From Nemertoderma westbladi (taxonomy: Eukaryota; Animalia; Xenacoelomorpha), in NCBI GenBank assembly GCA_032718475.1, contig JAUCBJ010007173.1, positions 124,001 through 188,000 on the forward strand: DNA of 64,000 nt, written 5' to 3'. A model generated the notes under the pieces. That model saw only the letters and a program-made list of their open reading frames with translations. It ran no database searches and was not told the origin of the DNA. A program made the position numbers and the translations under genes. Of the stretch, positions 8,685 to 63,373 are shown piece after piece; positions within the stretch are counted from its first letter, which is position 1; the number at the start of each line of letters is the position of its first letter.

Positions 8685-8689
8685 GCTCC

Positions 8690-8938
8690 TGTAGGCGTAT
8701 CTACTATTGCTGCGAGGCAGCAGACGAATAAAACCTTTGTCTATAGCAGATACTGTCAGATAGATATGTATAATAGGGTCCTCCGGGGACCGGTCACGGC
8801 ATGTAACAAGTGGCCTAGATAAAAGAATATGTACTGCAGTGCTCTGACTAACACCGACATACTGACTGTCCAACCCCGGTAGGTCTCTCCCCCCTCGTCC
8901 CAGGGTGTCCGTGGGGCGAGCCATATATTATCACCACA
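8690..8938 (-). repeat. 3' LTR of nested Mag-like element
   Basis: Appears identical to 13465-13713. Confidence 0.95.
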
Positions 8939-8997
8939 CCCCCTTACGAGCTCGGATTAGCCGTCTAAGGCTGTGCCGAGCTATCAACCGTTCTGTC

Positions 8998-13435: not shown

Positions 13436-13452
13436 GGGCCCAAATTATCCTA

Positions 13453-13464
13453 CACACTGCGCCA
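13453..13464 (-). other. tRNA primer-binding site (probably tRNA-Ser)
   Basis: TGGCGCAGTGTG directly after the 5' LTR. The same PBS occurs at 61132-61143. Confidence 0.8.
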
Positions 13465-13713
13465 TGTAGGCGTATCTACTATTGCTGCGAGGCAGCAGAC
13501 GAATAAAACCTTTGTCTATAGCAGATACTGTCAGATAGATATGTATAATAGGGTCCTCCGGGGACCGGTCACGGCATGTAACAAGTGGCCTAGATAAAAG
13601 AATATGTACTGCAGTGCTCTGACTAACACCGACATACTGACTGTCCAACCCCGGTAGGTCTCTCCCCCCTCGTCCCAGGGTGTCCGTGGGGCGAGCCATA
13701 TATTATCACCACA
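13465..13713 (-). repeat. 5' LTR of nested Mag-like element
   Basis: Direct repeat of 8690-8938. Confidence 0.95.
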
Positions 13714-13718
13714 GCTCC

Positions 13719-16700
13719 CTTGGCTTGTCTAATGTCAGCCGTGGTAAGATGAGGAGGCCATTCATCCTCTTCTTTACTTAGGAAGTCGGGTCCACCTAAC
13801 CAGTCTGGAGTATCTATCAGTTCTTGAGGGGTTGCTCCTCTAGAGGCGATGTCGGCTGGATTAATCGTCCCAGGGCAATGTCTCCATTGATCTACATTCG
13901 AGCGACTAAGTATAATGGCTACTCTGTTGGTAACGAAGATGCTGAACTGACAGACTTCATTGGTTATATACTCCAAAACGAGTAAAGCATCAGTCCAATA
14001 GACAGTTTTCTCCAGTGGATAGTCGATCTGTTCTGTTACATTCCGGCCGATGGCTGTAGCATATAGAGCCGCCTTTAACTCCGCTCGAGGAACTCGTAGT
14101 TTGTTGTTTATCAAGGCCTTAGAGGTGACCAAGGCAACTTTGATTCCATCCGGAGTTTCAACCCTCAGGTAGGCTACTATACCTATTCGCATATCGCTGG
14201 CGTCTCCAAACACATGGAGTTGATAGGAATACGTGGGGAGAACATGACCAAAATATGAATGGGAAATCGTAAAGTTCTCGATGGATGGTAGAGAATCTTC
14301 CCATTTCATGCACTTCTTTAGTAGTTCTCCCGTAAGTGGATCATCCCACGAGTGGTTTTCAAGCCACATTTGTTGCACTAAGCTCCGAGCAACCAATATA
14401 ACTGGACTAATAAATCCCAATGATAAGTGCTCAGGATACTTAGACAAATCCGTTTAGTTCTAACTGGATTATCTCGCTGTTTTAACTGGAAAAACAAGAT
14501 ATCTCTCTCCGTGTCCCATTTTAAACCAATCGTTTTGGTTTCTGGAAGGTTGTCCTTGATGAGGTCCAGATTTTTAACGCCTCGGTCTTCTACCGGAATC
14601 GATTCCAGACACTCACGGGAGTTACTAGTGAATTTGGTTAGTCGAAATCCACCGCGTTGCAAGCACTCTACCGTTCCCTTGGCAACATCAATGGCTTCTT
14701 CCACCGATGGGAGGGACTTTAAATTGTCGTCCATGTATATATCCCGTTTGATGTTGTCGATAACCGCTTTAGAGAAGGTGTCTCTGTTGTCAGTAGTACG
14801 CACTACTGAACAAGCGTTCGAGGGGCTCGAGATGATCCCGAAAGCCTGGATGGTCATCCAGTACTCCACCGGTTTTAGGTTGAGATCTCCTTCAGGCCAC
14901 CACAGAAATCATAGGCTGTCTCGATCCCTATCCAGTGCCTTGACTTGTAAGAACATGCCTTCTATATCCGAAGCGAAAGCGATAGAATATTGCCGTAATC
15001 TTAATAGTATTCCCAACAAGGATTGGAGTAAGTTGGGTCCCGGCAACAATTCAGAGTTCAGGGATTGACCCATGTAAAGGGCGGAGCCGTCGAACACTAC
15101 CCGGACTTCGTTGGGTTTACCGGGTTTGGGAACGTAATGATGTGTTAGATAATACGTTCTCTCTGTTATGGGTGTTTCTTCCGGTACTCTCTCCACGTAT
15201 CCCTTATCAATAAATTTCTTCAGCTGGGTTTTATACATTTCCCTAGCTGAAACATTGGCTGTAAGACGCCGATGTAGTTGCGCGATTCTCTTTTCCGCTA
15301 AAGGTCGGTTATTTATAAAGTTGGGTTCTCGCCGTCAGAACGGAAGACCAATCTCATCTCGACCTTCATCTTTCAGAAAACGGGTAGTCGTTTCCTGAAT
15401 CTGCTTGGCTCTCTCTTCCTCGATGGACAAGGCCTTGTCGTAGGAATTAGGCTCTACGGCTTCTTGAGTAAAGAATCGTACGGTGTGTTCATCGCGAAAT
15501 TTATTGTTGTATCGATCTATCACTTCGTTTAATTCGTCGTTGTAGGTGAATTGTCCGCCATGATTGATGAGATGGCACAGGTTTACTTGGTTTAACCAAG
15601 TTTCATTTTCGGTGAGGAGGTCGATTGTATTTTCCTCGTCGTATAATTGGTTAATATCGTAATTATCTGAGGAGTATGGTGTTCCCTCAGTTGTGGTTTC
15701 TCCCTCACTGATTTCTTCTTCCCATTCACTCACCTGATGTATCATCTCATGAGGGAGTCTTTCCATTAGTGTTCTACGGGAAGGTCCAGTGAAGTACCAA
15801 CCTACTCTCGTTCTTCCCGCGTACGTTTGTAATGGTTGCGGTCGAGCAGGCCTTTTTCTAATGTCTCAAGCGCCTTGTGCGCATTTTGGCCGATTAATAT
15901 CTGCACCCCTAGGTAGTCAGTGTTGAATCTAGGAATATCATGCTGCTGGGTAAAATGGTCTTCATCGCAGTTGTAAGGTTCCACTTGGCTGGTAGCAAAG
16001 TTCTTTATCGTCACCATTTTTATTGACCTTATGCTATGTTCTCCTAGTTCATCCTGGGGAGTGGACAATGCACACACATAGTAATCTGTAGCTACTGTGG
16101 ATTTCCAAACCTGCATAATTCCTGAAAGGTTCAACTTAGTTCGGAACTTGGGTTGTCCAGCAAAGATGTCTTCGGCTAGTTCTTTGTCAATGAATGTACC
16201 TGTGCTGCTGGAGTCAAGGAGGGCGTTTGCTATCAAGCTTTTCCCTAGTCCATGGACTCTCAGCTGCACTACAGGGAATTCCCGGATTCCGACGTTGTAA
16301 GTCGGCGCTTTCCAAGATGGTTGCCGGTCCGGAATAGTCAGTCGAGGATCTTCATCGTTTGTTTCAGTCTTATACGTAAGTGCTCGATACACTGCGGTGT
16401 TTATCATATAACAGGATTCGTTTTCGTCTTAGAATTCGTCCGTGTTGAATCCTTCCATCTCAGAGCTGTGGTCAGTGTCGTTCACATCACTGAATTGGAC
16501 ATGTAGTTCGGGCTCACTTACCTGACTCGTGCGGGTTCTGTCAAATTCTGTGTGCAGCAAGATATGATGTTTCGCGCCGCACTTAGCACACCTCGCGTCT
16601 GAGTAACAGGTCCGCCATTGGTGTCCTTGTCTGAGACAATTATAACACAACCGCTTATCCCACATGACATCACGTCTATCCTTTAGGGATTTCTTCAAGA

Positions 16701-17148
16701 ATTCATCACATCCACTCAAGCGATGGGGCCCGTCGCACAATGCACATTTGGGTTTGATGTTACTTACTTTAACCTGTGTGGTGTTGTGCACACTTGTTCT
16801 TTCCTCGGGTTTTCTTCCATGAATTATCTTAGGAGACGTTGGAGGAGTTGTTACCTGCTCTCTCCTGTCACTGGTTCGAGATTTAGATTTACTTACGTCT
16901 TTCTTCAGTTTGTTTACATAATAAGATCTTTTGGTGTCTTTCCCGCTGTTCTCCTCGTGGGAGGTTTGGCTTTCGCCGTCGTCTGTATAACACACTGGTG
17001 TTACCTTTCTCCTAGAAACGGGTTTTTCACTCACCTTATGTTCCGGTGTCTTCTCTCGGGACTGCTTTAGGAGCTGTAATCTTACCTCTCCATTTAAGAA
17101 TGACATGAGATCAGCCATGGTAGGGTCCCTTTGTTGCTGGTCCATCAT
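13719..17148 (-). pseudogene. pol: BEL element 1 gag knuckles, protease, RT and RNase H (fragmented)
   Basis: ORF pieces 16429-17148, 15802-16407, 15335-15766, 14909-15238, 14378-14869 and 13623-14447 carry consecutive BEL motifs. Confidence 0.9.
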
Positions 17149-17166
17149 ATAGAGAACTCTTTTGTC

Positions 17167-20030
17167 TCAACAAGTACCTACTCCACCCTTTGGCAAAGTA
17201 GATGCTACAGCTCCAACAACCATGGAACTCTGATATTCCTGAGACTTACCTAACCAATCTAGTTGTCTACAGATCTCCTGAATCTCATCGGAAAACTCTA
17301 TAATCCCGCTGCTAAGGAACTTTCGGGGCGCTACTAATTTCGCATACAAATACCTAGCTATGTTAGTCCTATTACCATACCTGATGTTTAGTGTATCCCA
17401 AACTTGTCTTAATCCATCTGGATGTCCAATAAACTTTAACGCCATTAACTTGGGAGGTCCTTCCAAGCACTCGATGAGGAATCTAAGTTTCTCTCCGTTA
17501 GATATTACAGAGTTCTGTATGTTATCTTTATAAAATTCATTAAAAGGTAACCATTTCATCTCATCTCCATTGAACTTGACAACCTCTCCCACCTTTACCG
17601 CTTGACGGGCTTCAGTTCTAGCCATTTGATGCGTAAAACTTTCTTGGGCCATCGTATTATTTAATATCGAGTTATCGGTATATACATTTCTCGGATTATG
17701 ATCAGGTCTATATGGAATATCATTATCAACAGGTTTATAATTACCCTTAATAGGGTTTACTATAGGAGTTTCTACTTCACTAGCAGTATAGATGCATGTA
17801 GGCTCCACACCTTGCGCATGAAATACTTCAGACCTAACAGGTTGACACATCGTTACAGGGGGTGGTGGTATACCCATTTGTATATTTACTAATTTATCGC
17901 GCTCTAAAGCGATACGCTGCTGCACTTCTTGCAACTCTAACCTACTCTCTCTTACTGTTCCCTTTAACTGCTGAACAGTCCCTTCCAACTCTCGGACCTG
18001 CTGGGAAGAATGTAATTTATGTTCCTCCAGCTGCCTGAGCAGGCGATCCATCCCCCGCCGTCCCTCGTCTACCCACTCTACCGCCGAAGCGGGAGCCGCC
18101 AACATAGTAGCGGGTTGACGCGTAGGGACGACGGGCGACAAATCATTTATGTCTTGCTCGGCATCCAGGACCGGGAGTGATTCAGGGGCTGTTCTACTGG
18201 GCACAGGTAGTTTAGTACTGTGCAAAGGGAATTTAGAGTTAGGTTCTGGAAGTACAGGTGTCTCTATCACAGAGGGAGTGGCTTCGAGGACAGGCCTAAT
18301 TATTTCAGGCTCATCTACTATAGTAGGGAGTCTTTCTACTCTAATAATTTGGTCTGTAGGCTCAGGATTACTTAACTCTACACTAGCTAGTTGCCTTCTC
18401 ACAGTTGGAGGCAAATTAGGCAATTTCTGCCGGTATGGCGCTCTTCTACGTCCGCTTGAACAAGATTTATTTCCTCTACCTTCAGGATCTATTGTATCGC
18501 CTTCATCAGAGGATGTAAATCCCTGTCTCCTGGGAGTAGATTGACTTAGCAGCTGCATCTGAGTAGCTGTTCTCTGTTTCTTCAAGTAATCTTGTTTCGC
18601 TTGAAGGTTCTCCAGCTCTAGTTGGGTAGTCGCTTCAGACGCCTTCAGTTCTGCTTCTGCCACTGCCGCCTTTCTTTCAGCCTCTGCAGCTAACGCCTTC
18701 CTCTCAGATTCTGCCGCTGCCGCTTCCGCTGCCGCTTTTCTTTCAGCCTCTGCAGCTTTTCTTTCAGTCTCTGCAGCTGACGCCTTCCTCTCAGATTCTG
18801 CTGCTGCCGCTGCTGCTGCTGCTTTTCTTTCAGATTCCGCCGCTGCTGCTGATCTTCGGTCTTCTATTTGCCATTTGTTTAATTGTTCATCTTGATCCAT
18901 TGCCATGAGGATGCTTTCATCAAATTTAGCCTGCTCCGCAGCTAATATTTCCGCATCTAACGAGTCCAACACAAATTTGGCTCCCTCACTATTAGGGTGA
19001 AGTCCAGCTAGCCGTCTCCTTAACTCTTTGTCACCTATAACTCGTTGATAGTCCGACAGATAGATGTCAATAGCATCCTTCTTCTGAGGTTTCTCGGATG
19101 TAACTTTGCCTTCCACCTGAGAAAAGGTAGCGTCTGTTGATTCTCCGTGGGTCATGCGCTCGGTTAGCTGAATTTTCCATGAGGCTGTTCCTTGGACTTT
19201 AAGACTCACCCGTTGGAACCAAGTCTTTATGGCGACTTGCAACGACGTGTCTTGGCTTCTCTTCGAGGCTTCCTCAAAGGCTGAAAGGATTAGTCTGATC
19301 CGTAGAATTCGTTCTCGAACTTGATAAAGCAGCTCTCCCTGCTCTTGAGGTCCGTGAGGTTGTTGAAACAGGTGTTCCTCTAATCGCTCCAAAGAGCTGA
19401 AGAATCCCTGGACATATCCTGCTGCCGACCTCTTCCACACAGCGGGATCTCGAGTATCCTTTACTACTCCCATCCGGTATAAGTCCTCCCAGGCAGCTTC
19501 CGATAAGTTAAACGAGAGTCCGGGCCGGGGAAGTTCCATTGCGTCTCGACAATAGACTTCAGTTCCTCCATCGTGTATCCCGCATAACTGTCCCTGGTCG
19601 ATCGCTTACTTCTCACCCAATCGATTTGATGTTCTTCCACAGCGATCAATACTCTCGTGAGTACAGCTCCAGGAAGAATTAGAAGTGGATCTGGATAAAC
19701 CGCTTCTGCCATCATTGCTCCGATCTCGGGTGTCAACTCTACAGTGTCTGAACTGCTAGAGTTATCGGGCCATTGAGAAATAATTTCTCGGTTCGGGTGC
19801 TGCTGCTGTTTAACAGCTGCCTCTTGGTCGCGCTTGACTTGAGCCCTAGTGCCTATGATAGACCTATGGTACTTTACTAGTCTAGGGTCTGATACTACTA
19901 CTGTAGGGATGACCTTTCTTACAGTAGGAGGGGACTTGGACTTCGGTCTCCGATTTTCTATACTCCTATCTGAGTCACAGACTGTTCTTTCTAGGAGACT
20001 ATCTGACAGTGTTTGCTTTGTATCAGCCAT
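17167..20030 (-). pseudogene. gag: BEL element 1 gag N-terminal region (frameshift near 19540, stop at 17167)
   Basis: Coiled-coil segments with AAEAERK repeats, then VKFNGDEMKWLPF..EKLRFLIECLEG..LNIRYG typical of Pao gag. Homologous to 29992-31749. Confidence 0.85.
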
Positions 20031-21857
20031 GATTTATTTTACAGTTGAATGCCTACTACTATAACGACAGTCAAAGCAAGTCTAGTAATTCAGTATCAAC
20101 TGTAAGCCTAGTAATTAATTACCGATACCGTTACTCAGTGTAACGTGATATATATAATATATTAAAATACTGGTATACACTTATAGTATATATATAAGTA
20201 TTATTATAGACTAGAATTAGTCACAGAATACCGGTATATAATTTCAGCCTAAATTTATATAAATATATATAATAAGCCTACCGTAAATACCGGTATACAC
20301 CTATAGTATATATAAGTATTATTACAGACTAGGATTAGTCACAGAATACCGGTATATAATTTCAGCCTAAATTTATATAAATATATATAATAAGCCTACC
20401 TTAAATACCGGTAATGTCAATTATTGATAATAACTGAATTTCTGAATTTTAGGGTTACTTTCCTTTACTTTATTACTGTTATTAAGCAGTAGTCCAACTG
20501 ATATTAAGACCTAATTGATGTATAACAGGCCTACTATTTTATAAATCGGTTTGAGTTGATTTATAATATATTATGTACCCGTACAAGGGTTTTTGACAAT
20601 ATTTGAAATAAATGTTGTTATTTCTGGGTAAGGAGTCACTACACAGATAATTCTACTTTACTAAGTTACTTATCACTACAAATTACTTACAATTGCAGTT
20701 TGAGATTACAATCTCTAAATAAACACTAAAAGTTACACATACAATTTTTAGGGTAATTTTACAAGAAATCTACAAACCAGCCTAACAAGGAGTTAGAATT
20801 TCTGGCTCTTACAAACTGACAGGATACTACGGTATTTGAAAACAATAAAGCAGTAGTAAGTAAATTGCGTTGTCCAGGATAAGGAAATACCACCGTCTGA
20901 TGACTTATAGTCTTAGCTCTATAAGTACTACGTTATGTACCCGGAGTGTCCTTACCTAGAAGTTAATTACCGAAGCCAACCAGAGCTAACGTGCCTATTA
21001 ACCACGTTACAACACAAATATACTGCCTACACACAAAATTACTTTCGGAAAGCACTGTACTCTAAACCCTAAATTAGGTACGGTACAAGTACTTATACAA
21101 CAAATAACCAGCAGTTAAATATACTTGAACAGCCAAAAGAACCACGGTATCTGCTGGAGTGACCGGAGCACAAAATCACCAGTCTTTACCTACGCCAAGC
21201 AGCCCTGATGTAGTACCGGGGTTAATTTAACTATAACGGTATGTATAACAAGCACAATTACTGTAGGAATAAACTTGGGGAGTTGGAGGTTGCGAATACT
21301 CACATAGACTCTGAATAATAAATATTACGCTACCCGTGCAGACTATACAAACAAAACACAGACCAAATGCTGGCAGACTACTGTCAAGCCTAAATAAACT
21401 ACAGTATATGCAGACTCCGAAATGGTTAGTTAGTAGGCGTTCTAACCAAGTAGTACGGCTTATTCTTTCATGGAGGATTTACCTTACAGCACTGGATGCC
21501 TCCACCTTCCTAACTAGCACTTTATCGGACAGACACTCTACATACACTGCAATCGCATCAGACCTAACAACAGTTAGACAACAATCCGGCCTACAAATTT
21601 TTTATAAAATCTGAGCAGGCTTACACGCCTTCTGCTCAATATTACACTTACAGATAAATAAAACTGACAGAAATAAGTAAAATCCCAATAAAAACCAGGG
21701 ATGAAGTCCCCGATTAAATATTAAGACCTACCGGTATATAATTATCACAATCGAAATAATACTGCTGTACCTGTAAGTACCGGTTCGGATCAGGCCTACA
21801 GTTTACCGTCCTACCGGTACATTCGACTTTATTGCCTACGGCGCAATAAAGAAACCC
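20031..21857 (-). other. Long AT-rich 5' leader of BEL element 1 with ~119-bp tandem duplications (20165-20415)
   Basis: Non-coding. Homologous to 31750-33990 and, inverted, to 63375-64000. Confidence 0.75.
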
Positions 21858-21869
21858 TAAATCTATTAA
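21858..21869 (-). other. Non-tRNA primer-binding site of element 1 (TTAATAGATTTA)
   Basis: Abuts the 5' LTR, lacks TGG, and is exactly complementary to LTR positions 22656-22667. Confidence 0.8.
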
Positions 21870-23044
21870 TGTTTGCGCTTTCAGACCTTTAGCAGTTTAA
21901 CCTGCCAATTTTAATTGTCCTTTTCTTTATAAATCGACTTTAGCCCTTACCAATTACCTGGTGTGCTGAAGTTACATCCGCCGAAGCCAGTCCGTTCGCG
22001 GCGTATGACCCACGGTGTGGGAGACTGGATTTGGATTCCTTGGGAAGTATTGCAGTGTAGACCTACTGTATTATTCGATTGATTGCTACTATATAAATTC
22101 TGACAACTATATTTACTTTCGGGGAAATATTAACAGTTCCTTTAGGACATGGCGCTTTAAGTATAAAAACAGAGTTATGACTTATACTAATCACAACTAG
22201 ATGGCCACAGAGTTACGTAAATAGTGCATTCTTTAGGAGATGCTTTATTAACCTTCACACTACTTCACACGACTTCACACGACTTCACACTACTTCACAC
22301 TACTTTACACTACTTCGCACTAATTTGCCGACCATCACTGAATTTGATCATATATAAGGAGGATTGCGACTGACACACGTAGGGATTATGAAATAGCATT
22401 TAATTCACACAAAACCACTGTAATTTAAGTCGCAGTTGCTACCGGTAGACTCTATTCCTCTTACCTCAGTAATCAAGAAGTTTGAGGGGTTTATGATTAT
22501 TTATCGGTATTCTCCAAATATAACATCAACATCCATTAATATAACAACAATTAATATTATATAAAACAGAAGTAAAATAGTGCGGTGAAATGAGTTAAGT
22601 GTCCAGTGTCCGGAGGGTGAGTAAGACAGTTATTCAGTAGGTAAGTAAGTTCAGGTTAATAGATTTACGTTCTTATAACCAAGGCCATCAGATGTTCCTG
22701 GGCCAAAGTCTAAAACTTCCGTACAGAAGCACAGAATCCTGAGTTGAATCTAATTCTCAGAAAATAGTGATAATTGAATCTAATTCTCAGAAAATAATAA
22801 TAATAACCATCATGCATTGCGCGAGTTTCTCGGGTAGGGCTCTGTTAGCCGTAAAGTGAAAATTGCTCTGATTGGCTAAAAGCCGGAACAAAGAAACCTC
22901 CACGTACACAGAGAATCAGCTGACAGATTTCGTCATCCTGGTTCTAATTCCTTTCCGACGCGTAGTTGAATAATTTTAGGGCTATTTTAGAGTATTCTGC
23001 GCATTGCGTAAAAATGACTTGTTATGTCTGCAAAAGCTTTTATG
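21870..23044 (-). repeat. 5' LTR of BEL element 1 (LTR B)
   Basis: Plus strand starts TGTTTGCGCTTT and ends AAAAGCTTTTA(TG), with the terminal dinucleotide mutated. Contains 10-bp CTTCACAC(T/G)A repeats and a CCAAT box. Confidence 0.88.
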
Positions 23045-23217: not shown

Positions 23218-24484
23218 TGTACGCGCTTTTGAAGACCTTTAGCAGTTTAACCTGCCAAAATTTATATGTCTTTTGATTTATAAATATACTTTAGAAGATG
23301 ACAAATATTTAATACCAATAAACACAACATTAGCAGAAGCCAGCCTAGTGCGCGTCCATTCACCCGCTGGATAATCCCGGGAGGCTGGATTCTGTCGGCT
23401 TAGATTATTATTGCAGTGAAGCTTACGGTATTGTATTATTCGATTGATCGTTAATAATTAATTTCTGACTAATATTATTCACTTTCGGGAAATATTAACA
23501 GTTCCTTTTAGGACGTGGCGCTCTATCTAAGTAAACAGAGATATGACTTATACTAATCACAACGGTAAGTCGGTAAGGCTTATGATTCACGTATGAGGCG
23601 CATTCTTTAGGAAATGCTTAGTTATCAGCCACAATCATGCACACTACCGGTAACGCACAATACTGCTCACTAATTTGCCGACCGTCAATGAATTTTATCA
23701 TATATAAAGAGAATAGCAACGGACTCATGTAGGGCTTATCAAATAGCATTAAATTCAATACACACCACAATAATATAAGTCGCAATCGCTATATATATAA
23801 CCCGCCTCTCTAACCTGTAGTGTATCAAGAAAATTGGGAAATTTGGGTTCTTTATAAATGTTCTCCAAATAATATTCAATCCACTGATACAAGATATGAC
23901 AACAGTAAAACATTAAGACGGTAGGTTAAGATATGATATGCACTGGTATGGACCGATATGTGAGTTGTTATGAACCGTTATGCACTGAGTTGAACTGATA
24001 ACAGTCATACGCTCTATAATTTAAGCCTACTAATGTTTTCTAGAGCCGGTGTTTCTGGCTTAGACAGCAATAACAACAAAGTATCAAGTAAAAAACTGTA
24101 AGACTGAACAATCCCAGTATGATCGGCTCAAAGCTCCACATCGACAGAGAGAATCGCTCTGATTGGCTGAAGCCAAACAAAGAACCATGCGTCCAATGGC
24201 TGTTTCCATTTAAGCAACCAGCTGCTAGATGTCGTAATCTGAATCATCACGGCTAAGCTGTGTAAAAGTATTTGCCGTATTGCGGGTTTTTTGCCTTACC
24301 ATGTCCGCTAAAACACGTATATAGCAGAATGACTTTTATGTCCGTTAAAACACCTGTAACGGTACCTTGCGGGCGAGGGGAATATTTATACAGTTAGAGA
24401 ACCTTTTTTAGAGTATTCCAGCGCCTGGGGGGAAACTGGATTGCGAAGCAAAGGGGCCAGTTATATCCCACAGAAGCTTTTACA
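23218..24484 (-). repeat. 3' LTR of BEL element 2 (LTR C)
   Basis: TGT..ACA termini, near-identical to 34004-35270, PPT at 24485-24492. Confidence 0.95.
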
Positions 24485-24562
24485 CCGCTCCCAGAAAATG
24501 GGATTTGAGTCTATAAAATATACAAAATCACAGTTTCTAATATACGTAAATACTCTAAACAG

Positions 24563-27640: not shown

Positions 27641-29983
27641 TTACGTTATAGAGTCCCTAGATATTTGTCGGATTAGGGAAGTGGTCGTAGGAAGAGTATC
27701 TTGCCTTCCATAGTTTCCGGACAGTTTTCGGTCTCTTTCCAGTAAACATAAACGACCAGCTGGGCGATTGAGTTGTTGTGTTACTTTCTCCGCTCCCTTG
27801 GCCTGTCTAATCTCCGCCGGGGTAAGATGAGGAGGCCATTCTTCTTCTTCTTTACTTAAGAAGTCGGATCCACCTAACCAGCCTGGAGTATCTATTAGTT
27901 CTTGAGGAGTTGCTCCTCTGGAAACGATGTCGGCTGGATTAATCGTCCCAAGGCAATGTCTCCATTGATCTATATTGGAGTTAATATCGTCATTATCTGA
28001 GGAGTATGGTGTTCCCTCCATTGGATCGTCTACATCACTGCTCTCCACTTCCCATTCCTTTACTTGGTATACCTGTTGTTGAGGTAATCTCTCTTTGAGA
28101 GTTCTACGGGAAGGGCCAGTGAAGTACCAACCTACTCTAGTTCTTACCGCATAGGTTTGCAGTGGCTGCGGTTGAGCAGGCCGTTTCTCCAATGTCTCGA
28201 GCGCCTCATGCGCGTTTTGGCCGATGAGTATTTGCACTCCAGGATAATCTGTCTGGAATCGAGGTATCTTAAGATGTTGGATGCTCTCATCCTCGTCCCA
28301 ATTATAAAGGTCTGCTTGGGTAGTAGCGAAGTTCTTTATAGCCACCATTTTTACTGACCTTATACTTTGTGCTCCTAATTTATCCTGGGGGGTGGACAAC
28401 GCACCTACATAGTAATCTGCCGTTATGGTAGATTTCCAAACCTGCATAATTCCTGACATATTCAATTTAGTCCGGAACTTGGGTTGTCCAGCAAAGATAT
28501 CTTCGGCTAGTTCTTGATCGATGAATGTTCCTGTGCTGCCGGAGTCAAGGAGGGCGTTCACTATGTAACTTTTGTTAAGACCGTGAACTCTTACTTGAAC
28601 TACAGGAAATTCTCTGATTCCTACGTTGGAAGCTGGAGCTTTCCAAGATGGTTGTTTGGCGAAAGTAGTTGGGGGAAACTCATCGTTGATGTCCTTTTCG
28701 TAAGTAAGTGCTCGATACACTGCGGTATTTATTAGATAACAGGATTCATTGGCGTCGGAGAATTCGTCAGTATAGAATCCTTCCATCTCAGACTCTTGAT
28801 CAGTGTCGTTTACGTCACTAAATTGGACATGTAGTTCGGGCTCACTTACCTGACTCTGTCTGTCTCGTTCGAACTCACTGTGTAACAAGATGTGATGTTT
28901 CGCGCCACACTTTGCACACTTTATGTCGGAGTAACAGGTTCGCCGTTGATGTCCTGGTCTGAGGCAATTATAGCATAACCGCTTGTTCCACAGGACTGTA
29001 CGTCTGTCTACAAGGGATTTCTTTAGAAATTCAGCACACGCACTCAAACGGTGGGGCCCGTCGCACAGCGCACATTTTGGTTTGATGTTACTCACCTTAA
29101 CTTGGTTAACGTTCTGCACTCTCGTTCTTTCTTCGGGCTTTCTTCCGTGAATTCTCTTAGGAGACGTAGGAGGAGTTGTTGTTACCTGTTCTCTCCTGTC
29201 ACTGGTTCGAGACTTGTATTTACTTACGTCTTTATAGGTCTTGTTGTCATAGTAAGATTTTGCTGTGTCTTTCCCGCTGTCCTCTTCTTGAGAAGCTTGG
29301 CTTTCGCCGTCGTCAGTATAACACACTGGTATTATCCTTCTCCTAGAAACGGGTTTCTCACTTACCTTATTTTCCGATGTTTTCTCTCTGGACTGCCTTA
29401 TGAGTTGTAATTTTACTTCACTATCTAAGAAGGACATGAGATCAGCCATGGTAGGGCTTCGGCGTTGTTGTTCATTCATGTACAACACTTTCTTGTCCCA
29501 GCGCGTACATACTCCACCCTTTGGTAAAGTAGAGACTACGGCTCCAATGACCATGGAACTCTGATATTCATGCGACTTACCTAACCAGTCCAGTTGTCTA
29601 CAGATCTCTTGAATTTCATCGGAAAACTCTATAATCCCGCTACTAAGGAAGTGTCGGGGGGCTACTAATTTTGCATACAAATACTTAGCTATGTTATCCT
29701 TGTTACCATACCTGATGTTTAATGTATCCCAAACTTGTCTTAATCCATCTGGATGTCCAATAAACTTTAACGCCATTAACTTGGGAGGTCCTTCCAAGCA
29801 CTTGATGAGGAATCTAAGTTTCTCTCCGTTAGATAGTACAGAGTTCTGTATGCTATCTTTGTAATATTCGTTGAAAGGTAACCATTTCATCTCATCTCCA
29901 TTGAATTTGACGATCTCTCCCACTTTGACCGCTTGGCGGGCTTCTGTTCTAGCCATCTGACGCGTAAAGCTTTCTTGGGCCAT
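27641..29983 (-). CDS. gag: Element 2 gag core, knuckles and protease fused in frame to RNase H and integrase tails
   Basis: 780-aa ORF with LLDSGSTG. Junctions near 27975 and 27781 join distant parts of the element 1 pol. Confidence 0.85.
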   Translation of the reverse strand: MAQESFTRQMARTEARQAVKVGEIVKFNGDEMKWLPFNEYYKDSIQNSVLSNGEKLRFLIKCLEGPPKLMALKFIGHPDGLRQVWDTLNIRYGNKDNIAKYLYAKLVAPRHFLSSGIIEFSDEIQEICRQLDWLGKSHEYQSSMVIGAVVSTLPKGGVCTRWDKKVLYMNEQQRRSPTMADLMSFLDSEVKLQLIRQSREKTSENKVSEKPVSRRRIIPVCYTDDGESQASQEEDSGKDTAKSYYDNKTYKDVSKYKSRTSDRREQVTTTPPTSPKRIHGRKPEERTRVQNVNQVKVSNIKPKCALCDGPHRLSACAEFLKKSLVDRRTVLWNKRLCYNCLRPGHQRRTCYSDIKCAKCGAKHHILLHSEFERDRQSQVSEPELHVQFSDVNDTDQESEMEGFYTDEFSDANESCYLINTAVYRALTYEKDINDEFPPTTFAKQPSWKAPASNVGIREFPVVQVRVHGLNKSYIVNALLDSGSTGTFIDQELAEDIFAGQPKFRTKLNMSGIMQVWKSTITADYYVGALSTPQDKLGAQSIRSVKMVAIKNFATTQADLYNWDEDESIQHLKIPRFQTDYPGVQILIGQNAHEALETLEKRPAQPQPLQTYAVRTRVGWYFTGPSRRTLKERLPQQQVYQVKEWEVESSDVDDPMEGTPYSSDNDDINSNIDQWRHCLGTINPADIVSRGATPQELIDTPGWLGGSDFLSKEEEEWPPHLTPAEIRQAKGAEKVTQQLNRPAGRLCLLERDRKLSGNYGRQDTLPTTTSLIRQISRDSIT

Positions 29984-29991
29984 CGTGTTAT

Positions 29992-31749
29992 TTAATATCG
30001 AATTATCGGTATATAAAGTTCTCGGATCATTACAGGTCTATAGGGAATATCATTAATAACAGGTCTATAATCACCCTTAATAGGGTTTGCTATAGGAGTT
30101 TCAACTTCACTAGCAGTATAGATGCGTGTAGGCTCCACACCTTGCGCATGTAATACTTCAGACCTAACAGGTTGACACAATGTTACAGGGGGTATTGGTA
30201 TGCCCTTTTGTATATTGACTAATTTGTCGCGTTCTAGCGCGATACTTTGCTGCACTTCTTGCAACTCTGCTCTACCTTCCCTCACTGTTCCCTTAAGTTG
30301 GTGGACAGTCTCCTGCATCTGTCCTAGCAGGAGATTCATCCCCCGCCGTCCCTCTTCTACCCACTCAACCGCCGAAGCGGGAGTCGCCAACATAGTAGCG
30401 GGCTGACGCGGGACGACGGGAGACAAATCTTTGATTTCTCTCTCTGCTATCCGGACAGGGATATTCTCTTGGACTGTTCTACCGGGTACAGGCAGTGTAG
30501 TACTATGTAAAGGGAATTTAGAGTTAAGCTCTGGAAGTACAGGGGTCTCTAACACAGGGGTGACTTTGGGAACGACAGGCCTAATTATTTCAGGCACATC
30601 AACTATAGTAGGGAGTCTTTTGACCTTAATAATTTGGTCTGTAGGTTCTATACTACTCAAGTCTGTGCTAGCTAGTTGTCTTCTAACAGCTGGGGGCAAA
30701 TCAGGCAATTTGTGACGGTAAGATGTTTTTCTACGCCTACTTAGATGAGATCTATTTCCTCCGCCTTCAGGATCGGTGGTCTCGCCTTCCTCCGAGGATG
30801 TGTATCCCTGGCGCTTGGGAGTAGATTTTCTCATCATCTGCATTTGATTAGCAGTAAACTGTTTATTTATACTGTCTTGTGTCTCTTGCAGATTTTCCAA
30901 CTCCAGTTGGGTAGTCTGCTCAGAGGCTCTCCGTTCTGCTTCTGCCACTGCCTTTGCTGCTTTTCTTTCTACTTCTGCTTCTGCCATAGCCGCCGCCTTT
31001 TGTTCCTCTATCCGTCTTTTCTTTATTTGTTCTTCTCGGACTCTAGTGAGGCGGAGTTTTTCATCACATTCAGCTTGGTTTGCAGCTAACATTTCGGCAT
31101 CGATTGAGTCCAACACAAGCTTGGTTCCTTCACTATTAGGGGAAAGTCCAGACAGCCGTCTCCTCAACTCTTCGTCTCCTAGGAATCGCTGATAGTCGGA
31201 CAAATAAATGTCGATAGCGTCTCTAGTTTGCGGCTTCTCTGCTGATGTTAATTCGCTTTCCACTTCGCTTTCCAACTCGCTTTCCACTTCGCTTTCCACC
31301 TCACTTTCCACTTCGCTTTCCACCTCACTTTCCACTTGAGAAGAAGTGGCGTCGGTTGATTCTTCATAGGTTGGCCGCTCATCATAAACCGTATCCGCCA
31401 TCTTCGCTCCGCGTTCGGGCGTCCGCTCAACAGTATCCGAACTACTGGAGCTATCTGGCCGCTGAGAACTAGGTTCTTGGCTAGGAGGTTGCTGCTGTTT
31501 TATAGCTTCTTCTTGATCCCGCTTGACTTGGGCCCGAGTGCCTATGGCAGACCAACGGCGCTTCACTAACTTCGCAAATTGCGAAATCTTTTCTACCAAC
31601 CTAGGTTCTGACACAACCACTGCAGGGGTTGCCCTTCTTACAGTATGAGGGGTTTCAGACCTCGGTCTGGGATTCTCTACACTTTGATCTGAGAAACAGG
31701 CTGTTGTTTCTAGGAGACTATCTGACAGAGTTTGCCTTGTGTCAGCCAT
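29992..31749 (-). CDS. gag: Element 2 gag N-terminal region (frameshift near 30030) with 12-bp ESEV repeats
   Basis: Homologous to 17600-20030 with an in-frame internal deletion near 31385. Confidence 0.8.
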   Translation of the reverse strand: MADTRQTLSDSLLETTACFSDQSVENPRPRSETPHTVRRATPAVVVSEPRLVEKISQFAKLVKRRWSAIGTRAQVKRDQEEAIKQQQPPSQEPSSQRPDSSSSSDTVERTPERGAKMADTVYDERPTYEESTDATSSQVESEVESEVESEVESEVESELESEVESELTSAEKPQTRDAIDIYLSDYQRFLGDEELRRRLSGLSPNSEGTKLVLDSIDAEMLAANQAECDEKLRLTRVREEQIKKRRIEEQKAAAMAEAEVERKAAKAVAEAERRASEQTTQLELENLQETQDSINKQFTANQMQMMRKSTPKRQGYTSSEEGETTDPEGGGNRSHLSRRRKTSYRHKLPDLPPAVRRQLASTDLSSIEPTDQIIKVKRLPTIVDVPEIIRPVVPKVTPVLETPVLPELNSKFPLHSTTLPVPGRTVQENIPVRIAEREIKDLSPVVPRQPATMLATPASAVEWVEEGRRGMNLLLGQMQETVHQLKGTVREGRAELQEVQQSIALERDKLVNIQKGIPIPPVTLCQPVRSEVLHAQGVEPTRIYTASEVETPIANPIKGDYRPVINDIPYRPVMIRELYIPIIRY

Positions 31750-33812
31750 GTTTGATTGTACAGTCGAATGCCTACTGCTATATTACAGTTAAAGCAAGTC
31801 TAGTAATTCAGTATCACTGTTAGCCTAATAATTAATTACCGATACTGCTACTCAGTGTAGCGTGATATATATATAATATATTAGAATACCGGTATGCTTA
31901 TAATATATATATAAGTATTATTACAGACTAGATTTGTCACAGAGTACCGGTATATAATTTTAGCACAAATATATATAAATATATAATAGGCCTATCGTGA
32001 ATACCGGTATACAGCTGACACTTATAGTATATATAAGTATAATTATTACTAGAATTAATTACAGAATACCGGTATGATTTCAGCTCAAATTTATAGAAAT
32101 AAATATAATAAGCCTATGGTAAATACCGGTATGTCAATTATTTTTAGAATAATTGAATTTCTGAATATTTTAGGGTTACTTGGTTACTTTAACTTACTTT
32201 ATTACCGTTATTTAAGCAGCAGTCCAACTGATATTGAGACCTAGTTGTTGTATGGCAGGCCTAATATTTATAAATCGTTTGAGTTGATTTATAATATTTA
32301 TATACCCGTTTAAAAGGGTTTTGTCAATATTTGAAATAAATGTTATTATTTCTGGGGGAGTCACTACACAGAAGCTGTGCGCTCTCAGTGAAGTGCTACC
32401 TATGGGACACTAAAACAGATAATTCTAATTTACCTAAGTTACTTAATACTACAAATTACTTACGATACGGGTGAGATTAAATCTCTAGTTAAACACAACA
32501 AAAATATTACGTACGAATTTTTAGGGTAATTTTACAGGAAGTCTACAAACCAGCCTAACAAAGGGTTAGAATTCTGGTTATTACAATGGACAGGGTACTA
32601 CGGTATTTGAAAATAATAAGTAGTAGTAAATACACTGCGTTGTCCAGATAGGAAAATACCACCGCCTGACGACCTATAACCGTATCGCTATAGGTACTAC
32701 GTTATGTATCACGGAGTGTTCCTACCCAGAAGTTAATAGAGCTAGCGAATGTGCCTATCAACCACTTTACAACACAAATATAATGCCTACACACTAATTA
32801 CTCCGGAAAGCACTGTACACTAAACCCTAAATTAGGTACAAGTACCGGTACAACAAATAATCAGTAGTTAAATATACTTGAACAGTTAAAAGAACCACGG
32901 CATCTGCTGGAGTGACCAGGGCACAAAGTCACCAGTCTTGTCCTACGCCAAGCAGCCCGTGTAGTACCGGGGTTAATTTAACTATAACGGTATGTGTAAC
33001 AAACACAATTACTGTAGGAATAAACTTGGGGACATGAATGTTGCGAATAATCGCATAAACTCTGAATAATAAATATTACGCTACCCGTACAGAATACTCA
33101 AACAAATACAAACCAAAACGCTGGCAGACTACCACCAAGCCTAAATAAACTACCGTACGTGTAGATTCTGAAATAGTTAGTTAGTATGCGTTCTAACACG
33201 GTAGTACGACTTATTCTTTAAGAGGGGATTGACCTTACCGCTATGGCTGCCCCAACTTACTAACGGAGCTTTATCAGACAAACTCTACACACGCAGCAAT
33301 CTCTTCAGACCTAATAATAGCTAGACAACAATCCAGCCTACAAAATATCTGAGTAATAACTATTACGGTACCTGAACAGACCACACAAACAAACACAGGC
33401 TAAAACGCTGGCAGACTACGATCAAGCCTAAATAAACTACAGTATATGCAGATTCTGAAATAGTTAGTTAGTATGCGTTCTAACACGGTAGTACGACTTA
33501 TTCTTTAAGAGGGGATTGACCTTGCAGCATATGGCTGCCCCAACTTACTAACGGCACTCTATCAGACAAACTCTACACACGCCGTAATCTCTCCAAACTC
33601 AACAACAATCCGACAACAGTCTGGCCTACAATTATCTGAACAATCTGAGCAGACTTACACGTCTTCAGCTCAATATTAACTTACTAGGAAATAAAACCGA
33701 CAGAAATAAGTAAAATCTCAATAAAAAACCAGGGCGGCCGTCCCTGATTAAATACTAAGACCTACCAGTATACAATAATCAAAATCGAATAATACTAATG
33801 TACTTATACTGG

Positions 33813-33937: not shown

Positions 33938-33992
33938 CAGGTTTACCGGTCGACCGGTACTTTCAACTTTATTGCTTACTGCAATAAAGTCA

Positions 33993-34003
33993 ATGACTGT
34001 TAT
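33993..34003 (-). other. Non-tRNA primer-binding site of element 2 (ATAACAGTCAT)
   Basis: Abuts the 5' LTR and is exactly complementary to LTR positions 34784-34794. Confidence 0.8.
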
Positions 34004-35270
34004 TGTACGCGCTTTTGAAGACCTTTAGCAGTTTAACCTGCCAAAATTTATATGTCTTTTGATTTATAAATATACTTTAGAAGATGACAAATATTTAATA
34101 CCAATAAACACAACATTAGCAGAAGCCAGCCTAGTGCGCGTCCATTCACCCGCTGGATAATCCCGGGAGGCTGGATTCTGTCGGCTTAGATTATTATTGC
34201 AGTGAAGCTTACGGTATTGTATTATTCGATTGATCGTTAATAATTAATTTCTGACTAATATTATTCACTTTCGGGAAATATTAACAGTTCCTTTTAGGAC
34301 GTGGCGCTCTATCTAAGTAAACAGAGATATGACTTATACTAATCACAACGGTAAGTCGGTAAGGCTTATGATTCACGTATGAGGCGCATTCTTTAGGAAA
34401 TGCTTAGTTATCAGCCACAATCATGCACACTACCGGTAACGCACAATACTGCTCACTAATTTGCCGACCGTCAATGAATCTTATCATATATAAAGAGAAT
34501 AGCAACGGACTCATGTAGGGCTTATCAAATAGCATTAAATTCAATACACACCACAATAATATAAGTCGCAATCGCTATATATATAACCCGCCTCTCTAAC
34601 CTGTAGTGTATCAAGAAAATTGGGAAATTTGGGTTCTTTATAAATGTTCTCCAAATAATATTCAATCCACTGATACAAGATATGACAACAGTAAAACATT
34701 AAGACGGTAGGTTAAGATATGATATGCACTGGTATGGACCGATATGTGAGTTGTTATGAACCGTTATGCACTGAGTTGAACTGATAACAGTCATACGCTC
34801 TATAATTTAAGCCTACTAATGTTTTCTAGAGCCGGTGTTTCTGGCTTAGACAGCAATAACAACAAAGTATCAAGTAAAAAACTGTAAGACTGAACAATCC
34901 CAGTATGATAGGCTCAAAGCTCCACATCGACAGAGAGAATCGCTCTGATTGGCTGAAGCCAAACAAAGAACCATGCGTCCAATGGCTGTTTCCATTTAAG
35001 CAACCAGCTGCTAGATGTCGTAATCTGAATCATCACGGCTAAGCTGTGTAAAAGTATTTGCCGTATTGCGGGTTTTTTGCCTTACCATGTCCGCTAAAAC
35101 ACGTATATAGCAGAATGACTTTTATGTCCGTTAAAACACCTGTAACGGTACCTTGCGGGCGAGGGGAATATTTATACAGTTAGAGAACCTTTTTTAGAGT
35201 ATTCCAGCGCCTGGGGGGAAACTGGATTGCGAAGCAAAGGGGCCAGTTATATCCCACAGAAGCTTTTACA
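34004..35270 (-). repeat. 5' LTR of BEL element 2 (LTR D)
   Basis: Direct repeat of 23218-24484. Confidence 0.95.
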
Positions 35271-35945: not shown

Positions 35946-37382
35946 TGTAAAAGCTTTTGCGGACAAAATAATTCATTTAAATGCAAATCATGCAAATCTA
36001 TTAACGTATTTCATACTGTATTATTTCATACTTTCATATTATATCACATATCACCGCAATGCTGAATTCTGATACTGCAACACTGCTGTTGCGCCGCTAG
36101 CACCGTTTTTTACTGTTTTATACTGTTATTAGCTGTTGTTATATATTAATGGATGTTATATTTGGAGAATACTGTTGAATAATCGTTAAATCCCCCTTAA
36201 CTTTCTTAATTACTGAGGTAAGCAGAAGGGTGTATTGTGATGGGACCTGGGAGTTGGCAGTATATATATATGCGTCGCCGCGTCCCTAGTCTGCTGAGGT
36301 TGTTGTCTGGATATATATATAGTAGGCCGAAGGCCGTTCAAATAACTGAGTTTTACTGTCAGTGTTTTATAATCGCAGTAATCAATAATACAGTCTGAAT
36401 AAACAGTCTGACTATAATAGTACGGTAGTGACGACGGTTAAAACTGTTCCGGTCTCACAACTGCATAGGAACCAACTGAACCAGTAATCAATAACTACAA
36501 CGGTTATATTATCATTGACACATACTAAATTACATCTACACTACTGAGTGGCCTGAGTATCCAATAGATGCACTCTAATCACTCCCAATGTGCTCTGCCT
36601 CCCACCCACCATTGGCTTAACCTGATTAATTGTCACCTCGCCACTCCCTGTTGCCATTATCCATACGTGCTAGCCTTACTAGCCTGTTTGTCCCTCTGAG
36701 GTGGTTTGACCTCTCAACTCTCCCTGTGGCTTACGGCGTGTATCGCCTTAGTTGGTTGTGAGGTACATTATTATTGGTAATGTCACCTCGACAACTATAA
36801 TTTGCAAAATGCCACTAAACCCATTTTCGGTGGGTAGTGCAGGGAATTGAATCCGCTTACATGTATCAGTAGCAATTATGGCTCAATTTATAGTGGTCTG
36901 TATGAATTTAATGCTATTTCATAACCCCAACGTATGTGAGTTGCAATCCTCCTTATATATGACTAAAATCGGTGACAGTCGGCAAATCAGTGTGTGTTAG
37001 TGTGATTATTGGTACAGAAATTGAGTGTGAAGGTTAATAAAGCATTCCTAAAGAATGTGCCATTTTCGTTATCTCATTACCACTCGTTGTAATTAGTGTC
37101 AGTCATAACTCTGCGCGATACTTAAAGCGCCACACCCCAAATGAACTGTTAATATTTCCCTGAAAGTAAATATAGTTGTCGAAGATTATATAGTTAAGTG
37201 ATCAATTGAATAATACAAAGTAGCCTACTCCTCTCTCTGCAATAGAATCCAGTCTCCCACACCCGTGGGTCATACGCTGCGCTAGACTGGCTTCAACTGA
37301 TGTCAATTAGTACGCGCGATTATCAACTCAAAAGACACTTAAATTAGCAGGTTAAACTGTTAAAGGTCTAAAAGCGCGAACA
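35946..37382 (+). repeat. Degenerate solo LTR of the BEL family (LTR E) with unrelated sequence inserted at about 36235-36890
   Basis: Starts TGTAAAAGCTTTTGCGGAC, ends AAAGCGCGAACA, flanks TAGAT/GAGAT (4 of 5 TSD match), inverted homology to LTRs A and B. Confidence 0.75.
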
Positions 37383-63362: not shown

Positions 63363-63373
63363 ATAACCGTTTG
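63363..63373 (+). other. Non-tRNA primer-binding site of third element (ATAACCGTTTG)
   Basis: Exactly complementary to LTR positions 62612-62622. Confidence 0.8.

What the first reader, a model, noticed from the sequence alone, without database searches (positions are those of the whole stretch)
33993..34794. Candidate tRNA-independent, self-priming BEL/Pao retrotransposons
Seen: none of the three BEL 5' LTRs is followed by a TGG tRNA PBS. Each is followed by a different 11-12-mer exactly complementary to a site at the same relative place in its own LTR, 750-800 nt upstream: element 1 TTAATAGATTTA (21858-21869 vs 22656-22667), element 2 ATAACAGTCAT (33993-34003 vs 34784-34794), element 3 ATAACCGTTTG (63363-63373 vs 62612-62622). 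Both partners change together across three divergent LTR types. Established: S. pombe Tf1 and related Tf1/sushi Ty3/Gypsy elements prime reverse transcription with the first ~11 nt of their own RNA, released by RNase H, while BEL/Pao elements normally use a tRNA. Inference: these BEL elements self-prime, with transcription starting at the LTR partner site. I do not know of this being described for BEL/Pao.
Basis: partly seen in the sequence, partly recalled or inferred. Interest (0 to 1): 0.92.

Follow-up and report, generated by a model that had tools for sequence, protein, structure and literature searches.

The report
Self-priming signature in BEL/Pao retrotransposons
Three related BEL/Pao jumping genes in an animal genome lack the usual tRNA landing site and carry instead 11-12 letters that pair perfectly with their own terminal repeat, and many relatives from other animals show the same pairing across a predicted splice joint, so this group likely starts copying itself with a piece of its own RNA, against the textbook rule for the family.

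Summary
Three BEL/Pao LTRs end ...ACA and are followed directly by an 11-12-mer that is the exact Watson-Crick complement of a homologous site 740-786 nt upstream in the same LTR. The three differ at 4-5 of 11 positions and each pairs only with its own LTR (1, 3 and 1 of 5000 shuffles). Gypsy neighbours keep TGG sites.

In relatives with a defined LTR end, 13 of 15 non-TGG loci pair over 11 or more nt with their own LTR, 11 of them across a GT..AG intron (decoys 5 of 482). One family occurs with and without that exact intron. Pairing therefore likely happens on spliced RNA, and a self-made primer is likely (about 0.87).

The claim that transcription starts at the partner, as in Tf1, is untested and doubtful: in relatives the partner looks internal to R, and here a conserved TATA-like motif sits only 11-12 nt upstream. 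No RNA data were available.

ICTV describes the family as tRNA-primed; nine literature searches listed no report of self-priming in BEL/Pao. This scan noted the same signature before in other genomes (7 notes).

The parts
34004..35270 (-). Element 2, 5' LTR (1267 bp, TGT...ACA)
   Evidence: 2 differences from the 3' LTR; 5-bp target duplication at 23213-23217 and 35271-35275
33993..34003 (-). Element 2 primer-binding site, no TGG, directly after the LTR
34784..34794 (-). Element 2 partner site (candidate self-primer), exact complement of the PBS
   Evidence: 11 of 11; 3 of 5000 shuffles
34799..34805 (-). Conserved TTATA(A)GA motif just upstream of the partner (also 22671-22678 and 62600-62607); TATA box or RNA signal, unresolved
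   Evidence: 80-100% conserved against about 50% in flanks
34595..34603 (-). Splice-donor-like AG|GT(A/T)AG about 190 nt downstream of the partner, present in all 5 LTR types; use not shown
34193..34202 (-). Second LTR site, about 195 nt before the LTR end, complementary to the 5' arm of the leader hairpin; changes together with it between elements 2 and 3
   Evidence: own LTR pairs best for 3 of 4 arms
34025..34044 (-). Predicted hairpin near the LTR 3' end (also 21889-21908, 63322-63343)
   Evidence: folds; coordinates
33967..33989 (-). Predicted hairpin right after the PBS (also 21827-21851, 63382-63403, 63450-63476)
27641..31782 (-). Element 2 gag and shortened pol ORFs (DUF1759, zinc knuckles, protease-like; RT absent, only short ends of RNase H and integrase)
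24485..24493 (-). Element 2 polypurine tract
23218..24484 (-). Element 2, 3' LTR (carries the second copy of the partner)
21870..23044 (-). Element 1, 5' LTR (5' end not intact)
21858..21869 (-). Element 1 primer-binding site, no TGG
22656..22667 (-). Element 1 partner site
   Evidence: 12 of 12; 1 of 5000 shuffles
6830..20033 (-). Element 1 gag-pol, broken by stops, frameshifts and a nested Gypsy (8690-13721); RT at about 14420-15480, RNase H (Peptidase_A17) 13623-14453, integrase end (DUF5641) 6830-7249
1..1069 (-). 3' LTR at the window start, cut by the window edge; partner-type site at 699-710
62142..63362 (+). Element 3, 5' LTR
62612..62622 (+). Element 3 partner site
   Evidence: 11 of 11; 1 of 5000 shuffles
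63363..63373 (+). Element 3 primer-binding site, no TGG
35946..37382 (+). Solo LTR of the same family with a shortened 5' part and an insert; partner-type site at 35993-36004 pairs with 11 nt of element 1's PBS

Best explanation
These are BEL/Pao retrotransposons whose primer-binding site is the exact complement of a site in their own LTR, and that site likely serves as the RNA primer for minus-strand DNA synthesis in place of a tRNA. Shown: the complementarity, its co-variation, and in relatives its dependence on removing a GT..AG stretch. Inferred: (1) the partner lies inside the repeated R region, not at the cap, so the genomic RNA carries it at both ends; (2) it anneals to the PBS in the particle and a cut on its 3' side, probably by the RT's RNase H as in Tf1, gives the 3'-OH; (3) plus-strand synthesis copies the primer back into the PBS each cycle, which would explain why whole sequences turn over yet stay strictly Watson-Crick; (4) in intron-bearing relatives only a spliced copy of R can pair, most economically the spliced, polyadenylated 3' copy, with the unspliced 5' copy handing the intron on; (5) the window family has no intron at this site, as after exact intron loss. 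Non-autonomous element 2 would bring its own primer and borrow RT in trans. A self-made primer of any form: about 0.87; this internal-R version: about 0.5.
For: Own-LTR complement 12/11/11 nt against 6 nt across elements; 1, 3, 1 of 5000 shuffles. Homologous sites, 4-5 of 11 positions differ. The 3 Gypsy elements of the window keep TGG sites. Of 20 related loci with two LTR copies: 4 TGG-type, 1 without a recognisable LTR end, 15 others, of which 11 pair over 11-15 nt across a GT..AG intron, 2 over 11 nt contiguously and 2 over 10 nt contiguously; decoys reach 11 nt in 5 of 482. Wider scan: junction matches in 22 of 66 usable loci against 4 of 198 decoys. L017's 3' LTR is the exact intron-less form of L022's LTR (536-nt intron), with the same PBS: spliced R has been reverse-transcribed. 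L002 and L003 differ by matched changes on both sides. The partner ends in AC in 15 of 18 junction families, a shared end though the rest differs. A[AT]TAAA within 130 nt after the acceptor in 15 of 17 (2.35 expected; 0 of 17 before it). TATAWAW 111-345 nt upstream of the donor in 8 of 18 (no chance control). All 13 distinct non-TGG PBS of the strict set have 10 or more consecutive Watson-Crick pairs. The window RT is sister to the 35-row group that holds all 23 self-complementary loci (SH-aLRT 93, quick tree). Element 2 moved recently (2 LTR differences, intact target duplication) with this PBS.
Against: No transcript, start site, cut or cDNA end was observed. Folding of the 860-1060-nt unspliced RNA gives a mean partner:PBS pairing probability of 0.00-0.19 at 37 C (0.00-0.52 at 20 C), so pairing would need chaperoning. 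Pairing beyond the core is not better than shuffled flanks (Fisher p 0.07 for 17 relatives, 0.47 for the window), so it gives no support for RNA upstream of the partner. If TTATA(A)GA is a TATA box, transcription would start a few bases after the partner and leave it in U3. No conserved poly(A) signal lies close behind the partner in the window family. Contiguous matches in the wide scan are not enriched (11 of 66 against 29 of 198 decoys), so contiguous cases rest on loci with a defined LTR end. Many loci are re-assemblies of the same families, and several LTR ends were set by hand (L067 and L012 after seeing the sequence). The window RT has a long branch, the careful tree did not finish, and TGG-type L052 sits inside the group. 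Host tRNAs and small RNAs could not be searched.
Confidence: 0.5

Rival explanations
1. Tf1-type 5'-terminal self-priming: transcription starts at the partner's first base (34794, 22667, 62612), the first 11-12 nt fold onto the PBS and RNase H releases them.
For: Match length 11-12 nt with a sharp upstream edge in all three equals Tf1's 11 nt (PMC7175516, passages). A CCAAT box lies 137-209 nt upstream in 4 of 5 LTR types, and a donor-like site lies 176-223 nt downstream in 5 of 5, which would need a start upstream of it. A cap-terminal primer ends plus-strand copying at exactly the PBS length.
Against: No TATAWAW motif at about -30, and the conserved TATA-like motif is at -11/-12. In relatives exon 1 would be only 3-9 nt long if the partner were cap-terminal, which is implausible, so the window family would need its own switch of mechanism.
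Confidence: 0.25
2. Self-encoded primer in trans: a separate short LTR transcript (for example a spliced RNA ended at the poly(A) signal of a 5' or solo LTR) or an LTR-derived small RNA anneals to the PBS; the genomic RNA may then start just after the partner.
For: Fits a TATA box at -11/-12 with a start after the partner; in relatives the poly(A)-type signal lies 8-126 nt behind the acceptor; the long RNA does not fold the pair in cis; the solo LTR keeps a partner-type site.
Against: A trans primer would be shared between families, whereas each PBS matches only its own LTR; no such RNA was seen.
Confidence: 0.12
3. The pairing is structural or regulatory (packaging, dimer or translation switch), and a host RNA such as a tRNA fragment primes at or near this site.
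For: Other predicted stems and a second LTR-leader pairing surround the site. Half-tRNA primers without TGG are known in Ty1/copia (PMC6317226, passages). Host RNAs could not be searched.
Against: The pairing begins 0-4 nt from the LTR end, where synthesis must start, in every case. The cores have no G-U pair, while the neighbouring predicted stems do. 13 different PBS in relatives plus 3 here would each need a different host RNA that also matches the element's own LTR or splice joint.
Confidence: 0.1
4. Chance or assembly artefact.
For: 0.23% of window positions have some 11-nt complement upstream; loci come from short-read assemblies.
Against: Three independent matches at homologous places and 13 of 15 relatives against 1% of decoys.
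Confidence: 0.01

Closest known systems
Tf1/Tf2 of Schizosaccharomyces pombe, Tj1 of S. japonicus and the Tf1/sushi and Tcn1 groups (Ty3/gypsy chromoviruses)
   Same: No tRNA site; PBS of about 11 nt directly after the LTR, complementary to the element's own LTR; in Tf1 RNase H cuts between bases 11 and 12 (PMC7175516 and PMC4600332, passages).
   Different: Other superfamily (BEL/Pao). Partner 740-786 nt from the LTR end here. In relatives it is split by an intron and appears internal to R, whereas the Tf1 primer is the first 11 nt of the RNA.
TAR lineage of plant Ty1/copia (Houba, Osr-1), predicted self-priming
   Same: Self-priming inferred from sequence complementarity, outside the Tf1 group (PMC6317226, passages).
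   Different: Copia, plants; the passages I saw mention no intron-built primer.
Belpaoviridae / BEL-Pao as defined by ICTV; Achilles of the olive fly
   Same: LTRs, PPT, gag with DUF1759, domain order protease-RT-RNase H-integrase.
   Different: ICTV gives an 18-nt PBS for tRNA-Arg or -Gly and priming by a host tRNA (PMC8742986, whole text); Achilles has a tRNA-Tyr site (PMC4580426, passages). These elements have none.
PBS-less elements with hairpins: fungal GalEa copia, bivalve biv-TRIM
   Same: No canonical PBS; inverted repeats after the LTR (PMC6934838, passages).
   Different: There the repeats lie inside the internal region and no mechanism is fixed; here the PBS pairs with the LTR.

Membership tests
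BEL/Pao (Belpaoviridae) | Flanking LTRs (TG...CA), target-site duplication, PPT before the 3' LTR | tested here: met
   Element 2: 1267-bp LTRs, 2 differences, 5-bp duplication, PPT
BEL/Pao (Belpaoviridae) | Gag and Pol with order protease-RT-RNase H-integrase and BEL-type domains | tested here: met
   Peptidase_A17 E 2e-28, DUF1759, DUF5641; order by tblastn with three full-length relatives. Shown for element 1; element 2 lacks RT; element 3's genes are outside the window
BEL/Pao (Belpaoviridae) | RT groups with BEL/Pao | tested here: met
   Best RT matches 36-41% to Peptidase_A17/DUF5641 polyproteins; inside the BEL rows with a Gypsy outgroup
BEL/Pao (Belpaoviridae) | 18-nt PBS complementary to a host tRNA 3' end (ICTV profile) | tested here: not met
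   No TGG after any of the 3 LTRs. ICTV lists this as a family trait; placement here rests on proteins, so these are BEL/Pao by descent that break this trait
Named BEL/Pao clade (Suzu, Sinbad/Sailor, Tas, Dan, Flow) | RT clusters with the clade's reference elements | not testable with these tools
   No named reference sequences were on hand; the group also holds mollusc, brachiopod and fish proteins and lies apart from most insect rows
Tf1/sushi self-priming group | Ty3/gypsy chromovirus lineage | tested here: not met
   BEL/Pao domains and tree
Tf1/sushi self-priming group | PBS complementary to own LTR, no tRNA site | tested here: met
Tf1/sushi self-priming group | Primer is the first 11 nt of the transcript | tested here: inconclusive
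   No RNA data; promoter motifs and relatives argue against
Tf1/sushi self-priming group | RNase H cut releases the primer | not testable with these tools
   Needs biochemistry or cDNA ends
Tf1/sushi self-priming group | Additional U5-leader RNA structure (seen only as paper titles in reference lists) | tested here: inconclusive
   Predicted hairpins and a second LTR-leader pairing; own LTR best for 3 of 4 arms

The most novel reading that the evidence does not exclude
A large, widespread branch of animal BEL/Pao elements has dropped tRNA priming and builds its primer from an internal piece of R that host splicing assembles; splicing of only one R copy picks which RNA end primes, and lineages such as the window family kept the self-primer after exact loss of the intron. 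This would be a priming mechanism distinct from both tRNA priming and Tf1's cap-terminal primer.
Probability: 0.45. Interest if true: 0.9.

Novelty: new variant of a known kind. Interest (0 to 1): 0.76.

Why it matters
ICTV states that Belpaoviridae are primed by a host tRNA and that their replication is poorly understood. A self-made primer in a broad BEL/Pao branch would be a further origin of tRNA-free priming, and an internal, splice-assembled primer would differ from Tf1 in how the 3' end is made and how the LTR is rebuilt. It would tie reverse transcription to the host spliceosome, free these elements from host tRNA supply and from tRNA-fragment silencing at the PBS (inference), and explain why tRNA-based PBS annotation fails for them. 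It gives base-exact predictions that 5'/3' end sequencing can test.

Tried and rejected
No genome is held for the window, so copy collection and a host tRNA comparison were impossible; ARAGORN found 0 tRNA genes in the window. No RNA holder listed: the one run X1 is contigs, RNA status only guessed. Laying X1 on 21500-37600 showed many related copies but could not link PBS to partner; laying it on 560-860 to test the partner predicted for a fourth PBS variant gave 0 contigs, which proves nothing. An LTR-end motif found 0 matches in viral and metagenome collections, and protein scans of viral contigs found no relatives. Whole-RNA folding did not favour the pair. Extension of the duplex beyond the core was not significant, so I dropped it as evidence and as an explanation of the TTATA(A)GA motif. 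An intron from the donor-like site to the CAG|G 33 nt before the LTR end: removing it raised predicted pairing in 3 of 6 folds at 37 C (none for element 2), but element 3 has CGG there and the site is explained by a hairpin; not accepted. TTATA(A)G as a splice acceptor: no pyrimidine tract and no conserved upstream donor seen by eye; not accepted. Contiguous hits in the wide scan are at decoy level and were not counted. In one search the script chose non-consensus donors for L002 and L003; consensus donors give 11-nt matches. Rfam on 33700-35300: one weak hit far below threshold. The host group could not be told from the fibrinogen-domain gene (best matches 33-51% across many animal phyla). 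The careful tree did not finish; the quick tree and a FastTree run were used. Literature: searches listed no paper on self-priming or LTR introns in BEL/Pao; term look-ups in the two main BEL/Pao surveys found no PBS, priming or tRNA passage (PMC3118150; PMC554778: only PCR primers), nor PBS or primer in PMC6238403. Subscription papers, Repbase entries and all supplements were not seen and may hold an earlier remark.

Full report
Observation. Each of the three LTRs ends in ACA and the next base begins a run that is the exact reverse complement of a site in the same LTR: 12, 11 and 11 nt, with 786, 780 and 740 nt between the partner's 3' end and the LTR end. Dinucleotide shuffles of the LTR reached these lengths in 1, 3 and 1 of 5000, and each PBS finds only 6 nt in the other two 5' LTRs. 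The partners occupy the same alignment columns with their 3' ends in register. The three PBS differ at 5, 5 and 4 of 11 positions, and the partners change with them. The three Gypsy elements in the same window have TGG at or one base after their LTR ends.

What the elements are. Element 2 (23218-35270, minus) has 1267-bp LTRs that differ at 2 sites and a 5-bp target duplication, so it moved recently. It keeps gag (DUF1759) and a protease-like region but lacks RT and most of RNase H and integrase, so it must have borrowed these. Element 1 carries Peptidase_A17, DUF1759, DUF5641 and an RT in BEL order, broken by stops, frameshifts and a nested Gypsy. Its two LTRs are about 77% alike, so it is old or a mosaic of subfamilies. 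Element 3 is cut by the window end and is assigned by LTR likeness (71-81% over the 3' 620 nt) and leader likeness (82%). A solo LTR at 35946-37382 keeps a site that pairs with 11 nt of element 1's PBS. No genome and no usable RNA run were available. One contig of run X1 shows a further PBS variant, differing from element 1's at 3 of the first 12 positions (my reading, table 5c); its partner could not be found.

Relatives. The idea of looking across splice joints came from two earlier notes of this scan; I tested it on these loci. Twenty loci had two LTR copies that mark the LTR end (19, L053; several ends set by hand, L012 and L067 after viewing the sequence). Four are TGG-type (L008-L010 from one assembly, and L052), and L019 has no recognisable LTR end. 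Of the other 15 (13 distinct PBS), 11 pair over 11-15 nt with the joint formed by removing a GT..AG stretch from their own LTR, 2 pair over 11 nt contiguously and 2 over 10 nt contiguously, always starting 0-4 nt after the LTR end. Unrelated PBS/LTR pairs reached 11 nt in 5 of 482. A wider scan that did not know the LTR end, and required consensus-like splice sites, found junction matches in 22 of 66 usable loci (66 of 91) against 4 of 198 decoys; contiguous matches were not enriched (11 of 66 against 29 of 198) and are not counted. Many loci repeat the same family; 18 representatives are tabulated. There the partner ends in AC in 15 of 18, L002 and L003 show matched changes in PBS and exon 1, and the 3' LTR of L017 is the exact intron-less form of the L022 LTR (536-nt intron) with the same PBS. 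That last case shows that a spliced R has been reverse-transcribed and gives a route from intron-split to contiguous partners. In a quick IQ-TREE run on RT (47 rows; the careful search did not finish) the window RT is sister to a 35-row group holding all 23 self-complementary loci and one TGG locus (SH-aLRT 93 on both branches), apart from the other TGG loci and most insect proteins; its branch is long and its best identity is 45%. FastTree on 122 rows put it inside that assemblage.

Where the partner lies in the RNA. In the intron-bearing relatives an A[AT]TAAA signal follows the acceptor within 130 nt in 15 of 17 (2.35 expected from shuffles; 0 of 17 in the 130 nt before), and TATAWAW lies 111-345 nt upstream of the donor in 8 of 18 (uncontrolled). 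A cap-terminal partner would need a first exon of 3-9 nt. The partner is therefore most likely internal to R and present at both ends of the RNA (inference). For the window family the start site is open. A CCAAT box 137-209 nt upstream (4 of 5 LTR types) and a donor-like site 176-223 nt downstream (5 of 5) point to a start near or upstream of the partner. But a TTATA(A)GA motif 11-12 nt upstream is 80-100% conserved against about 50% in its flanks; as a TATA box it would put the start just after the partner. I tested whether that motif pairs with the leader instead; the gain was not significant. Folding of the long RNA does not favour the partner:PBS pair (0.00-0.19 at 37 C), which is weak evidence over 800 nt but counts against easy pairing in cis. 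Predicted hairpins flank the PBS, and a second LTR site about 195 nt before the end pairs with the leader arm, best with its own element in 3 of 4 cases.

How it most likely works. From general knowledge of LTR replication (recalled, not from a call), minus-strand synthesis must begin at the PBS next to U5, and plus-strand synthesis copies the primer back into the PBS. A primer encoded in the LTR would thus drag the PBS along whenever it mutates and keep the pair strictly Watson-Crick. That is what is seen: all 13 distinct non-TGG PBS in relatives and all 3 here have 10 or more consecutive Watson-Crick pairs, while neighbouring predicted stems contain G-U pairs. I commit to a self-primer internal to R, released by a cut on its 3' side, probably by RNase H as in Tf1 (PMC7175516, passages). 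For intron-bearing relatives the intron survives only if one R copy stays unspliced. The simplest arrangement is a spliced, polyadenylated 3' R as primer and an unspliced 5' R as template, since copying of exon 1 after the first strand transfer would also trim the primer to PBS length; the mirror arrangement is not excluded. Odds: internal-R primer 0.5, Tf1-type cap-terminal primer 0.25, trans-acting LTR RNA 0.12, structural pairing with a host primer 0.1. None of the RNA-level steps is shown.

Comparison with what is known. The ICTV profile (PMC8742986, whole text) gives an 18-nt tRNA-Arg or -Gly site and host-tRNA priming for the family; Achilles has a tRNA-Tyr site (PMC4580426, passages). 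Self-priming is established for Tf1 and proposed for Tj1, Tf1/sushi, Tcn1 and the plant TAR copia lineage (PMC7175516, PMC4600332, PMC6317226, passages). PMC3601003 speaks of hairpin priming in some chromoviruses and did not model BEL/Pao (passages). PMC6934838 reports PBS-less bivalve TRIMs without a mechanism (passages). PMC3286476 and PMC8220671 (passages) and PMC11042837 (one reference line) added nothing. Nine searches (listings only unless named above) showed no report of self-priming or of a primer built across an LTR intron in BEL/Pao. The library lacks most subscription papers and Repbase, and I read no supplements. The elements are BEL/Pao by descent, work like Tf1 in having a self-complementary PBS, and are not members of the Tf1/sushi group. 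This scan noted similar signatures in other genomes before (7 notes), none by place or sequence for this DNA; those notes are leads, not support.

Verdict. Observation confirmed; interpretation partly supported. New variant of a known kind, interest 0.76; the splice-assembled internal primer would rate 0.9 if shown.

Noticed in passing
window 1148-5110 (-), remnants 24511-26029 (-): A long extra reading frame, now in pieces, between pol and the 3' LTR of elements 1 and 2, with Cys/His knuckle-like motifs; no Pfam match and only sub-0.9 zinc-knuckle-like Atlas hits. Element 2 keeps parts of it though it lost RT.
   Followed up: partly
window 63430-63476 (+): Element 3's leader holds a second copy of the LTR-end/PBS/hairpin unit; its PBS-like part differs by one base from the first, and its hairpin arm pairs best with the LTR site at about 63166.
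   Followed up: partly
window 8690-13721, 41052-45574, 56208-61353 (-): Three Gypsy elements with short LTRs and ordinary TGG primer sites; the first is nested in element 1's pol.
   Followed up: partly
window 50736-54600: A second, diverged BEL/Pao remnant with gag-like pieces on the minus strand and RT-RNase H-integrase pieces on the plus strand, suggesting an inversion.
   Followed up: no
window 38199-40568 (+): Fibrinogen C-domain reading frame directly followed by a 1.3-kb array of 21-bp repeats that is open in three frames.
   Followed up: partly
window 23045-23209: An inverted fragment of the extra 3' reading frame sits between element 1's 5' LTR and the insertion site of element 2.
   Followed up: no
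L001-L013: Animal-type BEL/Pao elements, some with both LTRs, lie in assemblies labelled as bacterial genomes; probably host DNA carried into metagenome bins.
   Followed up: no
L052 and its sister L080: A TGG-type PBS inside the group of self-complementary elements: a possible return to tRNA priming, or a sign that the group is not uniform.
   Followed up: partly
run X1 on window 21866/33989 (table 5c): A contig joins an element-1-like LTR end to an element-2-like leader through a different PBS, a fourth variant in the same family; its partner was not found.
   Followed up: partly
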